This document shows, in pieces, positions 41,757 through 44,888 of a DNA stretch of 64,000 nucleotides. This stretch comes from an uncultured Poribacteria bacterium (GTDB lineage: Bacteria > Poribacteria > WGA-4E > WGA-3G). The position numbers were made by a program, and so were the translations under genes. The DNA lies in contig OX638351.1 in assembly GCA_951813565.1 (NCBI GenBank), forward strand, positions 3,200,001 through 3,264,000. Direction: 5' to 3'. The notes beneath the pieces are model-generated. The model saw only the letters and a list, made by a program, of their open reading frames with translations. It had not been told where the DNA came from and made no database searches. The stretch's first letter is position 1; every line of letters starts with the position of its first letter.

Positions 41757-42409
41757 CTAATTAGAAGGTTCTAATTTCTTTTGTACCTCTTTGAGATGAA
41801 ATATCGTTTCAGGATAAGCAGTTTCCCTATTCTTTTCTGTCCGATTTAGAATAGGTCGCTTGTGTTGATTAACGATGTGCATTCCTGCTATTTCAGCAAT
41901 GGTGGGATACATATTAAACTTATCGTTTGCCACAACGAAGACATCGTAATCATCAGCCAAAAACCGCTTACAGTTCTTGAAAACCTCTGCTACACCGTGA
42001 ACATAAGATTCTCTCGCCTCTCGTCCTCTTCCTCTAAACAACGGTCCTATTTCTAATTCATCTAATCTTTTGAAGTCAAAGAGATCATAAGCGTAGGCGT
42101 GCTGCTCATGGTAGTTAATAAGTCCAACGTAAGGAGGACTGGTCAAGATGCCTTTAATTCGCTGTTTTTGGGCAATTTCTGCGAATTGTGGGTTTTCCTT
42201 TCTCAACATTGTAGAGATGTCAATTGTCCGTGAATCACCTGTTATGCAGTGTTGAAAGGTGTCCGTTTTTAATTTACTGAATTCTATCCATCGTTCTATG
42301 CTGTCCTTGCTGTATCGTTGCCACCATCCTAAAATCGAAAAGAGCGGTTTACAGACCTTTCCATGCTTTCTGCAATAGTAGGTTGTCGTTACAGGTTTTC
42401 GTAAAGTTC
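41757..42409 (-). pseudogene. DNA methyltransferase, C-terminal part (after IS insertion)
   Basis: Open frame from 42407 TLRKPVTTTYYCRKHG... through TSPPY to stop at 41757. Confidence 0.9.
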
Positions 42410-42560
42410 GTCATAGGTACCCACTACCTAAAGGTAGGGGCTTGTGCTTCCTTGCGACTGCGGTTTTCTCAGAGAGTTGACCGTCTTACTGTCGCTCCAC
42501 TTTAGGCAGCCAAGCCTGCCCGTTTGATATTGATAGCAGCATTGGTGTCTCGGTCGTGAT
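42394..42560 (-). ncRNA. predicted TnpB omegaRNA (right-end scaffold plus flank-derived guide); 5' boundary approximate
   Basis: Position at tnpB 3' end and right-end hairpin; guide would begin GAACUUUACGAAAACC. Confidence 0.6.
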
Positions 42561-43614
42561 GTGAACCACATTCGGGACATGTCCACTGCCTATCAGAAAG
42601 AGAGAGTTCTTTGTTATGGTATCCACAATCACTACAAGGTTTTGTTGTTGCTATCCATTGCGAGATTCGCACAAGTTTTTTGCCGTGCTTCGCACACTTC
42701 TGTTCCAATATCTGAAGAAACTGGTAGAAAGAATGGTCAGAAACTTTACGCCCCCATAATCGTTTCATACCATCAAGGTTCAGCGTTTCAAAAATGAGTG
42801 TGTCAAACTCTACACAAAGTTTTGAGGCAAGTTTCCATTGCCAATCTTCTCTTTGTCGGGCAACTTTTCTGTGTTGCCTTGCCAAAGCACGACACGCACG
42901 ATAATAGTTGTTAGAACCTTTGACTTTACGGCTCAGCGCTTTGCTCAAGGCTCGCAACTTTTTCAGTGATTGTTTGAAAAACTGCGGAGATTGTCCCTTG
43001 TTGCCTTCGTCACTTGTGAGGAACGTTTTATTTCCATAATCAAATCCTGCGCTCTTACCTGTCTTGGGTTTGGGTTCGGAATCGTCAACATTCTCGCACG
43101 AAAAGCATATCCAATAGTCACCGCACCTATCGCGTTTGATTGTGATTGTCTTGATAGTTCCTTTGATTTCACGGTGTTTGTGGTAGGAAAACCATGTGTC
43201 TATACAGTTGATTTTGATACGGTTCCCTTCAAGTTTGTAGCCCGCTTGTGTGAAGGTCATGGAGTTGTATTTGTGTCTCGGTTTGATTTTCGGTCTACCC
43301 ACTTTACGCGTTGTTTTGCCTGATTTGCGGCTTGCTATATTTTGGAAAAATGCGTCTTGTGATTTACCATAACGTAGGACAACGTCTTGAACAACTTGAC
43401 TCGGCAAGTCCGCCCAGTGTGGTTTAGTTGTTTTTTTGAGTTTCGCAACATGTGCCTTCAGACGATACGCAGACAAATTTTTGCCGAACATGCGATAATA
43501 CCTACGTGCCAAACGCATGATATGTAGATGGATTTCCCACATATCATCAAGCATATTACCAAGTTTGATTGTGTTAGATTGGTGTTGAAGTTTGAACTTG
43601 TGAGATTTTCTCAT
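42502..43614 (-). CDS. tnpB: RNA-guided endonuclease TnpB
   Basis: RuvC GFDYG / FETL / DRDTNAAINI; zinc finger CSDC..CPEC. Confidence 0.95.
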   Translation of the reverse strand: MRKSHKFKLQHQSNTIKLGNMLDDMWEIHLHIMRLARRYYRMFGKNLSAYRLKAHVAKLKKTTKPHWADLPSQVVQDVVLRYGKSQDAFFQNIASRKSGKTTRKVGRPKIKPRHKYNSMTFTQAGYKLEGNRIKINCIDTWFSYHKHREIKGTIKTITIKRDRCGDYWICFSCENVDDSEPKPKTGKSAGFDYGNKTFLTSDEGNKGQSPQFFKQSLKKLRALSKALSRKVKGSNNYYRACRALARQHRKVARQREDWQWKLASKLCVEFDTLIFETLNLDGMKRLWGRKVSDHSFYQFLQILEQKCAKHGKKLVRISQWIATTKPCSDCGYHNKELSLSDRQWTCPECGSHHDRDTNAAINIKRAGLAA

Positions 43615-43661
43615 TGTCCACTTTGACCTTCAATATAGTCTTTTATCACTTCAAGAGTTAC
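43611..43661 (-). pseudogene. tnpA: remnant of tnpA C-terminus
   Basis: VTLEVIKDYIEGQSGQ* (Y1 YIxxQ helix); TGA overlaps tnpB ATG. Confidence 0.75.
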
Positions 43662-43774
43662 ACTATAGTATGATATATTATACCACATTGTGATTAGATT
43701 GAAAAGTATATTTTAAATCAAAACTTTCGCCGTGGACATCCCCTACCTAAAGGCAGGGGGTTTGACGGGGAGTG

Positions 43775-44714
43775 CTAAATCTGCGTGTGTTGTGGCTCTG
43801 CAAGAGCGAATTGTTCGGCTTAAAATAAGCATCAAGGCGTTTTGTGTTGACGTATCTTCTACTTTGCAAATTTCGTTGTGAACGAAATCAATCTCTGCCT
43901 TGACATCCGGAAGATACCACTGCTTCATAAAACGATCAGAATCAGTTGGCATCTGGACATCAATTTGGTATTCTGTAATGAGTTGATGATATGTCCCTAA
44001 AAAAGCGGTTTCCTTTTCAATTCCGTACTGCTTCTGGTCTATTTCACCCATTCTGACTTGGCGTTTGAACGATACTGGAAAATATTGATTGTTGAATTCT
44101 GTAAGGCTTTCAGCAAGTTTAGATTCAAATTCGGCTATTCCAGACTTGGCAACAAAATTACTTAGTGCTGCTGTAATTTCCTGACTTTTCTCGTACAGAT
44201 GGATAAAGTTGAATGTTCCCACCTTCGCATTGCTAATGAAAGCATTAAAAGCAGAAATATCAATACCGATTGCCTGCATGCCGAGTTCATTCGCTTGTAC
44301 CAATGTGGTCCCACTACCGCAAAATGGATCAAGGACAATATCGCCAGGGTGAAAATACACATCATGCTTAAAATCGTCTGTATGTGCATCTAAAAAATAT
44401 TCGACTAATTGGGGGATAAATTTGCCTTTGTAGGGATGCAGTCGATGGACGTGTTTTGTTGTTTCCGCCTCTTTGATTTTTTCAAAGGACAATGCCCAAT
44501 TCAGGTCGTTACCGAGTTCATTTTTCCATCGCTTCTCTCTATTGCTTTGCCCATAATAATTTTGTAGGCTATCCAAGGGAATCAACGATGCCCCATTTTC
44601 AAGTACAGATTCGATGTGTCCATACTGAATCAAATAGGAAATATTTGCGGTTGTAACGTTTTTATTGAGGTGTTCTGATGCCCATTGGCTTGCTTGTTTG
44701 AGTGTCAGAAGCAT
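43775..44714 (-). pseudogene. DNA methyltransferase (N4/N6, motif I before motif IV) with N-terminal HTH, N-terminal part
   Basis: HPYKGKFIPQ, VLDPFCGSGTT; joins in frame to 42409. Confidence 0.9.
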
Positions 44715-44845
44715 TTTAAGTCCCTTTGTTATGACAGCAGAATTATTTTCAGCTTATGTTCAATAGAAAGTAGTATACCATTCAAATATATAATTGTCAA
44801 AACGTTTGCTTATTCGGATGTCTAAAGTCTTGTCAATTGTCTGAA

Positions 44846-44888
44846 CGGGTCCCCACTGAATGCGCTTTTGACATTCAGTGGGGACCCG
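44846..44888. repeat. perfect 17-bp-arm palindrome with shared AATGCGCTTTTG core
   Basis: CGGGTCCCCACTGAATG-CGCTTTTGA-CATTCAGTGGGGACCCG. Confidence 0.8.

What the first reader, a model, noticed from the sequence alone, without database searches (positions are those of the whole stretch)
41757..44714. TnpB element silences a DNA methyltransferase; ends, TAM and guide can be read from the sequence
Seen: removing 42410-43774 restores a 530-aa ORF (..HADLGTLRKP..) joining motif I (DPFCGSG) to motif IV (SPPY). Known: in IS608-type ends the tetranucleotide 5' of each hairpin pairs with the cleavage site. Here AAAC predicts TTAG and CAAG predicts TGAC, and both are at the junctions. All three RuvC acidic residues are intact. 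Inference: TAM is TTAG, and the guide GAACUUUACGAAAACC would cut any restored MTase allele, locking the methylation state off. This is a 370-aa editor candidate.
Basis: partly seen in the sequence, partly recalled or inferred. Interest (0 to 1): 0.7.

Follow-up and report, generated by a model that had tools for sequence, protein, structure and literature searches.

The report
TnpB transposon splits orphaned DNA methylase
One of about 25 copies of a small jumping element in a sponge-symbiont bacterium sits inside a DNA methylase gene whose partner restriction enzyme is missing from the genome; the element's RNA-guided nuclease is predicted to cut the empty site, as such elements are known to do, and one amino acid of the nuclease changes together with the four-letter target motif.

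Summary
The anatomy is confirmed. A 1365-bp tnpA-less IS605-group element (43774..42410, minus strand) carries an intact 370-aa TnpB. All 30 left ends found in the genome follow TTAG, 42 of 49 right ends end in TGAC, and 118 of 120 homologues read DLGTL across the junction. The 'methylation lock' is overstated. Donor-joint cutting is the published retention mechanism and applies to every copy. The methylase is the orphan of a TdeIII-type R-M pair: no endonuclease gene was found in this genome, but one follows the methylase in 45 of 83 related loci. The guide matches only 4 of 73 uninterrupted TTAG-bearing orthologues over 16 nt, so it would cut precise excision products and near-identical alleles, not 'any' allele. 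Extras: left-end guide, flanking motif and TnpB residue 53 (aligned to the TAM -1 contact S56 of ISDra2) vary together (K/TTAG; mostly N/TTAA; S/TTAT), with one mosaic exception. Sister copies also split a type I HsdM and a Dam-like methylase, most simply because these genes are dispensable. Activity, TAM and expression are untested. The scan earlier noted the residue-motif link and orphaned methylases of this family on other DNA.

The parts
44772..44800 (-). sigma70-like promoter of the methyltransferase (TTGACA-17-TATACT, extended -10)
   Evidence: 11 of 12 matches; consensus match only (9 sites found vs 8.0 in shuffles)
43775..44714 (-). 5' half of an alpha-class amino-methyltransferase (313 codons, motif I DPFCGSG at aa 129); now reads on into the element and stops at 323 aa
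   Evidence: (PF01555); 99% identical to the intact 526-aa P0002
43775..43778 (-). TTAG: insertion target (C_L) and predicted TAM; stays outside the element
   Evidence: 30 of 30 left ends; position -5 not fixed (T16, A9, C3, G2)
42410..43774 (-). non-autonomous IS200/IS605-family element, 1365 bp, no tnpA, no target duplication
   Evidence: empty sites in L037 and L086
43760..43763 (-). left-end DNA guide G_L, AAAC
   Evidence: AAAC goes with TTAG, AAAT with TTAA, AAAA with TTAT
43740..43759 (-). left subterminal hairpin, TTT at the tip
   Evidence: (DNA fold)
43677..43705 (-). internal promoter-like site upstream of tnpB (extended -10, TGnTATAAT)
   Evidence: 10 of 12; consensus match only
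42502..43614 (-). tnpB, 370 aa; RuvC D192/E276/D356; zinc-finger cysteines 327/330/346/349; K53 at 43456-43458
   Evidence: NF040570 229.8 bits vs cut-off 100; ISDra2 TnpB E 2e-44; model's best fold match 8h1j, TM 0.70; pN/pS 0.14 against 23 other copies
42410..42535 (-). predicted omegaRNA scaffold: overlaps the tnpB 3' end; 5' hairpin near 42503-42521, right-end hairpin 42420-42440; 5' limit approximate
   Evidence: 4 of 15 consensus pairs show compensatory changes in 15 aligned ends; kept in gene-less minis; single-sequence fold no better than shuffles, z -0.06; no Rfam family
42441..42444 (-). right-end DNA guide G_R, CAAG
   Evidence: CAAG/TGAC 27 and GAAG/TCAC 18 of 47 resolved relatives
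42410..42413 (-). right cleavage motif TGAC, the last four bases of the element
   Evidence: 42 of 49 right ends
42394..42409 (-). predicted 16-nt RNA guide (right flank, inside the methyltransferase gene)
   Evidence: by analogy with ISDra2 (PMC8612924, passages read); no TTAG/TTAA site within 3 mismatches elsewhere in the genome
41757..42409 (-). 3' half of the methyltransferase (motif IV SPPY at aa 404, 42129-42140); open frame, tail of the endonuclease-less type; creatininase-family gene follows directly

Best explanation
A tnpA-less IS605-group element sits 3' of a TTAG inside an orphaned TdeIII-type DNA methyltransferase gene and splits it between motifs I and IV; it was likely mobilised by TnpA from sister copies, and its TnpB is predicted to keep it there by cutting the empty site. 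Shown: ends, target motif, empty-site sequence, intact TnpB under purifying selection, tnpA-bearing copies with the same ends, absence of the partner endonuclease from the genome, and the same insertion in several samples. Inferred: (1) single-strand peel-and-paste insertion directed by the left-end guide AAAC; (2) the insertion was tolerated because no endonuclease needed the methylation, so that loss most likely came first; (3) an omegaRNA made from the last ~125 nt of the element plus ~16 nt of methylase sequence loads TnpB, which cuts TTAG + matching sequence after precise excision, and repair from the sister chromosome restores the element; (4) both methylase fragments are inactive, so loss of this methylation is a by-product of selfish retention, not a regulated switch.
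For: Ends and motif. Empty site. 25 full-length TnpB copies at 89-100% identity; pN/pS 0.14. Y1 transposase inside elements with the same ends (228258-230009, 2158618-2160368 and two more; NF033573 over cut-off). Partner endonuclease is PF09520 RE_TdeIII: full in 45 of 83 related loci, partial in 7, absent in 23, 8 contigs too short. It was not found in this 95%-complete single-contig genome by tblastn or family search. Contigs of 4 of 4 runs laid on L038 skip it. The endonuclease-less arrangement with an intact methylase occurs in other species (L087, L072, L040), which fits endonuclease loss before insertion. Sister copies sit in many unrelated genes and between genes. Mechanism papers: PMC8612924, 10.1101/2023.03.14.532601, PMC3201880 (passages).
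Against: No nuclease assay, RNA data or methylome. No RNA run held more than 7% of the words and none was laid. The single-sequence omegaRNA fold is no better than shuffles. One TnpB with a native guide (HpyTnpB, IS608) was inactive in the assays of 10.1101/2023.03.14.532601. DNA methylase genes are hit more often than their share of target sites: 3 of 14 coding insertions vs 1.0%, and 1 of 8 in relatives. This leaves room for selection rather than mere tolerance. The order of endonuclease loss and insertion is inferred, not dated.
Confidence: 0.8

Rival explanations
1. The element is present and stable, but its TnpB does not cut here (inactive, not expressed, or a different or looser TAM such as TTAR). 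The insertion persists because excision is rare and the gene is dispensable.
For: No functional data. Copy 5120465-5119091 pairs a TTAA left end with a K53-type TnpB, so end and protein can be uncoupled. Gene-less minis of both end types share one right end. In another sample this copy's left hairpin appears interrupted by a second IS (P0129; same letters as at genome 4217481).
Against: Catalytic and zinc-finger residues intact, pN/pS 0.14. K53 in 22 of 22 TTAG-type copies and in none of 47 resolved TTAA/TTAT relatives.
Confidence: 0.12
2. Host-selected silencing: losing this methylation, or blocking return of the R-M cassette, benefits the symbiont, and the TnpB guide acts as immunity against incoming intact alleles of the same species.
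For: Near-identical intact alleles exist (P0002, P0122: 2-3 differences in aa 1-313, none in 315-446), with a tail like that of endonuclease-linked alleles. Three methylase genes are split in this genome and a fourth has a copy 36 bp before its predicted start. Pooled enrichment without the window copy P = 0.0013. TnpB defence against IS-free alleles is shown for plasmids (10.1101/2025.02.20.638934, section 9 read).
Against: The category was chosen after the fact. With a five-fold higher background (dispensable genes only) P = 0.09, and the independent set alone gives P = 0.08. The type I system hit also has a broken hsdS. Most orthologues escape the guide. The DNA of P0002/P0122 was not seen, so neither their guide match nor their endonuclease is shown. 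No second insertion in this gene among 83 other loci.
Confidence: 0.06
3. Reversible switch: TnpA excision, or splicing, restores the methylase in part of the population.
For: Both halves are still open frames, precise excision gives the wild-type protein, and TnpA is present in trans.
Against: No contig joint 42409-43775 in 4 runs; the one joint seen carries 8 other letters of a different lineage's allele. No room or Rfam match for a group I intron. An active TnpB would remove excision products. Contigs drop rare variants, so low-level excision is not excluded.
Confidence: 0.02

Closest known systems
ISDra2 TnpB (Deinococcus radiodurans; PDB 8h1j, 8bf8; PMC8612924, PMC10097598)
   Same: Best sequence match among solved structures (E 2e-44) and best fold match (TM 0.70, 27% identity); RuvC triad, zinc finger, right-end-derived guide position.
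   Different: 370 vs 408 aa; four-base motif TTAG vs TTGAT; K53 where ISDra2 has S56 (contact to TAM -1); this copy lacks tnpA.
IS608 (Helicobacter pylori; PMC3201880)
   Same: Hairpin ends with four-base guides at the foot; target outside the left end, right cleavage motif inside; 10 nt from the right hairpin foot to the cut; TTT tips.
   Different: G_L AAAC / C_L TTAG vs AAAG / TTAC; C_R TGAC vs TCAA; 15 vs 19 nt from the left cut to the hairpin.
ISGst family and PATE-like elements of Geobacillus stearothermophilus (10.1101/2023.03.14.532601)
   Same: Many non-autonomous TnpB copies and gene-less minis alongside few tnpA genes; co-varying TAM/guide pairs; donor-joint cleavage model.
   Different: Activity was shown there and is only predicted here; here two end types share TnpBs 89-94% identical and differ at one aligned TAM-contact residue.
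TdeIII/MjaII-type type II R-M systems (PF09520 + PF01555)
   Same: Relatives carry this methylase directly before a PF09520 endonuclease.
   Different: The endonuclease is missing here and the methylase is split. The site GGNCC is recalled and echoed by earlier notes, not tested; GGNCC is only mildly under-represented (0.94).

Membership tests
IS200/IS605 family, IS605 group (tnpA-less, IS1341-like form) | subterminal hairpins at both ends, no terminal inverted repeats | tested here: met
IS200/IS605 family, IS605 group (tnpA-less, IS1341-like form) | insertion 3' of a fixed 4-5 nt motif, no target duplication, scarless empty site | tested here: met
   30 of 30 TTAG; empty sites L037, L086
IS200/IS605 family, IS605 group (tnpA-less, IS1341-like form) | guide tetranucleotides co-vary with cleavage motifs | tested here: met
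   AAAC/TTAG, AAAT/TTAA, AAAA/TTAT; CAAG/TGAC, GAAG/TCAC. In one search the motif was looked for as predicted from the guide, so those counts are partly circular; searches are not.
IS200/IS605 family, IS605 group (tnpA-less, IS1341-like form) | Y1 HUH transposase associated with the same ends | tested here: met
   absent from this copy, present in four sister copies; NF033573 145.5 bits vs cut-off 55
IS200/IS605 family, IS605 group (tnpA-less, IS1341-like form) | TnpA-dependent single-strand excision | not testable with these tools
   no same-allele excision joint in contigs of 4 runs; contigs drop rare variants
RNA-guided TnpB nuclease (OMEGA) | TnpB family profile and fold | tested here: met
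   NF040570 over cut-off, below the stricter NF038281 cut-off (213.7 vs 425)
RNA-guided TnpB nuclease (OMEGA) | intact RuvC D-E-D (not a TldR) | tested here: met
   D192, E276, D356
RNA-guided TnpB nuclease (OMEGA) | structured omegaRNA from the right end, expressed, with flank-derived guide | tested here: inconclusive
   two conserved hairpins with some compensatory pairs; MFE z -0.06; no RNA run laid
RNA-guided TnpB nuclease (OMEGA) | TAM-dependent dsDNA cleavage | not testable with these tools
   needs a TAM library or interference assay
IStron | group I intron fused to the left end | tested here: not met
   only 160 bp between left end and tnpB; no Rfam intron match
TdeIII-type type II R-M system | intact methyltransferase with motifs I and IV in one frame | tested here: not met
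   split by the element
TdeIII-type type II R-M system | adjacent PF09520 endonuclease | tested here: not met
   none found in the genome; present in 45 of 83 related loci
TdeIII-type type II R-M system | recognition site GGNCC and N4-cytosine methylation | not testable with these tools
   SPPY motif seen; site recalled; o/e 0.94 is uninformative

The most novel reading that the evidence does not exclude
This Poribacteria element family is a natural TAM switch caught in progress. One residue of TnpB (53, aligned to S56 of ISDra2, which touches TAM -1) sets the last TAM base: K for G, N for A, S for T. It changed together with the last base of the transposase's DNA guide, and one mosaic copy is mismatched. 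The window's protein would be a 370-aa TTAG nuclease, a TAM not found in the papers searched, and re-targetable by one substitution. At this locus it would also act as immunity against return of the same-species restriction-modification cassette.
Probability: 0.3. Interest if true: 0.55.

Novelty: new member of a known kind. Interest (0 to 1): 0.27.

Why it matters
As a locus it is ordinary: an insertion sequence in a dispensable gene, kept by a published mechanism. Its value is as a well-documented TnpB with ends, TAM and guide fixed by 30 natural insertions, and as a near-isogenic TTAG/TTAA pair (89-94% identical) that makes the protein basis of TAM -1 specificity testable with one substitution. 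That bears on how protein-read TAMs keep pace with base-pair-read transposase targets, and on widening the target range of compact editors.

Tried and rejected
Alternative junction registers (DLATL and others): rejected by copy flanks and orthologues. IStron or splicing: no intron. Self-targeting: no TTAG/TTAA site within 3 mismatches of this guide in the genome; among 31 elements the closest was one 2-mismatch site. Site avoidance as a clue to the methylase target: GGNCC 0.94, CCNGG lowest at 0.79; uninformative. Replichore orientation: GC skew too irregular to assign strands. Same-allele empty site in public runs: not seen. In X5 the 5'-half contig stops exactly at TTAG, which may mark a branch; unresolved. 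Characterised relatives of the methylase: only partial, weak matches in plasmids and PDB. One search timed out and resolved no ends through a pattern error; both were redone. In one search, 15 of 62 TnpB hits were left unresolved and dropped before counting. Literature: 'TTAG'+'TnpB' as whole words gave 0 papers; one search gave 1, where the matches were TtAgo; two searches listed nothing on a single-residue TAM switch or a TnpB-locked methylase (listings only). The ortholog survey of Xiang et al. 2024 was seen only as cited in PMC13639567; its tables, and closed bioRxiv supplements, may list a TTAG TAM.

Full report
Observation. The window lies at G000:C1:3200001-3264000 of a 5.43-Mb single-contig genome. 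Its close protein relatives are named Candidatus Poribacteria and its holders include sponge metagenomes. On the minus strand a 323-aa ORF with methyltransferase motif I (44714-43743), a 370-aa TnpB (43614-42502) and an open frame with SPPY (to 41757) follow each other. Removing 42410-43774 gives a 530-aa frame, but so do several neighbouring registers, so I fixed the ends from other copies. All 30 left-end matches follow TTAG (position -5 varies: T16, A9, C3, G2), and 42 of 49 right-end matches end in TGAC, with flanks diverging at once. Orthologues agree: 118 of 120 proteins and 80 of 84 loci read DLGTL, DLATL occurs only in distant ones, and L037 and L086 have TTAG followed by an exact 20-nt match to the right flank. 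Contigs from four studies run from the flanks into the element (right side 4 of 4, left side 3 of 4); X2 and X6 also show the right junction. Four further database proteins and locus L031 end in the same left end. The insertion is real and shared among samples.

The element. The genome has 25 full-length TnpB copies at 89-100% identity, one frameshifted copy, partial copies and more distant families. It also has 404-417 bp gene-less minis and a 46-bp fusion of the two ends. Four copies carry a Y1 transposase between left end and tnpB, so the window copy is the non-autonomous form. TnpB passes NF040570, keeps D192/E276/D356, shows pN/pS 0.14 against 23 other copies, and matches ISDra2 TnpB best by sequence and by a moderate-confidence model (pLDDT 69). 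The IS608 rule (PMC3201880, passages) is borne out by natural variation. A second left-end type in the same genome has guide AAAT and follows TTAA (10 elements). Of 62 TnpB hits in relatives, 47 had both ends resolved: 46 AAAT/TTAA and 1 AAAA/TTAT; right ends were CAAG/TGAC in 27, GAAG/TCAC in 18 and variants in 2 (the motif was sought as predicted, so this count is partly circular).

TAM. In ISDra2, Y52 and S56 contact TAM base -1 (PMC10097598, passage). The sequence alignment puts K53 of this protein on S56. K53 is in 22 of 22 TTAG-type copies (20 with the left end resolved, 2 with an interrupted one). N53 is in 3 of 4 TTAA-type copies; the fourth (tnpB at 5120295) is a mosaic with a TTAA end and a K53 protein. 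In relatives TTAA goes with N (31), L (14) or C (1), never K, and the two TTAT elements seen have S. These sequences are related and recombine, so the counts are not independent events, and residue 52 also differs between the types. The pattern supports a TTAG TAM and names a candidate determinant; it does not show cleavage. No paper with TTAG and TnpB as whole words was found.

omegaRNA. The last ~120 nt are conserved in gene-less minis and relatives. A 15-sequence consensus keeps a 5' hairpin and the right-end hairpin, with compensatory changes in 4 of 15 pairs. The single sequence folds no better than shuffles, and Rfam has no match. The 16-nt guide length is taken from ISDra2 (PMC8612924, passages). 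Expression was not tested.

The methylase. In related loci it is followed by a PF09520 (RE_TdeIII) endonuclease: full in 45 of 83, partial in 7, absent in 23, contig too short in 8. In this genome the creatininase-family gene follows directly and no endonuclease is found (95% complete). The population in four runs has the same deletion, and other species have it with an intact methylase, L087 with an almost identical tail. So the gene was most likely already an orphan, which explains why the knock-out is viable. Five of 26 genomes with a match show a partial or broken 3' half (G016, G020, G022, G024, G028), and the genome holds 29 other PF01555 matches. The recognition site (GGNCC, recalled) was not established.

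The lock. Cutting the donor joint to retain the element is the model of PMC8612924 and was shown in 10.1101/2023.03.14.532601 (abstract and passages); exclusion of IS-free incoming alleles was shown for plasmids in 10.1101/2025.02.20.638934 (abstract, section 9). It applies to every copy. Its reach is narrow here: of 73 uninterrupted orthologues with TTAG, 4 match 16 of 16, 6 match the first 12, and 63 have two or more mismatches in the first 12.

Are methylases targeted? Of 39 elements with both ends, 14 fall in predicted coding sequence and 3 in DNA methylases: this one, a type I HsdM (4364926-4366289) and a Dam-like D12 enzyme (4822847-4821484). Methylase ORFs hold 1.0% of coding TTAG sites. 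In relatives 1 of 8 coding hits is a methylase. Without the window copy the pooled P is 0.0013, but 0.09 if only a fifth of genes are dispensable, and 0.08 for the independent set. The type I locus also has a broken hsdS. Tolerance in decaying defence genes is the simpler reading.

Verdict. Observation confirmed; interpretation partly supported. New member of a known kind, interest 0.27. The most useful by-product is the testable residue-53 TAM switch. Papers seen: passages of 10.1101/2023.03.14.532601, PMC8612924, PMC10097598, PMC13639567, PMC3201880, PMC12970189; abstract and one section of 10.1101/2025.02.20.638934; all others as search listings only. No supplements were read.

Noticed in passing
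G000:C1:4364926-4366289 (L169, L179) and 4822847-4821484 (L171, L180): Sister copies split a type I HsdM (521 aa rejoined; hsdS also broken) and a Dam-like D12 methylase (277 aa, opposite strand).
   Followed up: partly
G000:C1:3892772-3894146 (L182): A TTAA-type copy ends 36 bp before the predicted start of an intact D12-class methylase; it may have replaced or supplied the promoter.
   Followed up: no
G000:C1:5120465-5119091 (L175, L184): Mosaic copy: TTAA-type left end and first ~40 codons, then TTAG-type TnpB including K53; predicted end/TAM mismatch.
   Followed up: partly
G000:C1:4217481, 4851251, 3746253; protein P0129: A second IS appears inserted in the left-end hairpin of several copies; P0129 suggests the same happened to the window's copy in another sample.
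   Followed up: no
G000:C1:918809-918764: 46-bp element made of a left end fused to a right end through the shared hairpin sequence, still after TTAG.
   Followed up: no
G000:C1:365967, 611047, 2117809, 4985928 and others: 404-417 bp gene-less minis of two interior types keep the right-end RNA scaffold; both TTAG and TTAA ends occur on the same interior. Earlier notes describe their RNA cargo.
   Followed up: partly
window 44274-44364: A patch of 7 substitutions separates the window/X1 allele from that of X4, X5 and X7 within the dead methylase half, suggesting recombination.
   Followed up: no
L226:594-3693 (G009): An independent tnpA+tnpB copy splits another N6/N4 methylase in a relative.
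   Followed up: partly
window 44847-44887: A perfect 16-bp inverted repeat upstream of the methylase promoter; single copy in the genome.
   Followed up: partly
G000: Of the 11 rejoined frames of 150 aa or more that are cut at least 15 codons from either end, 10 lie on the element's own strand; could reflect single-strand targeting or selection for read-through.
   Followed up: no
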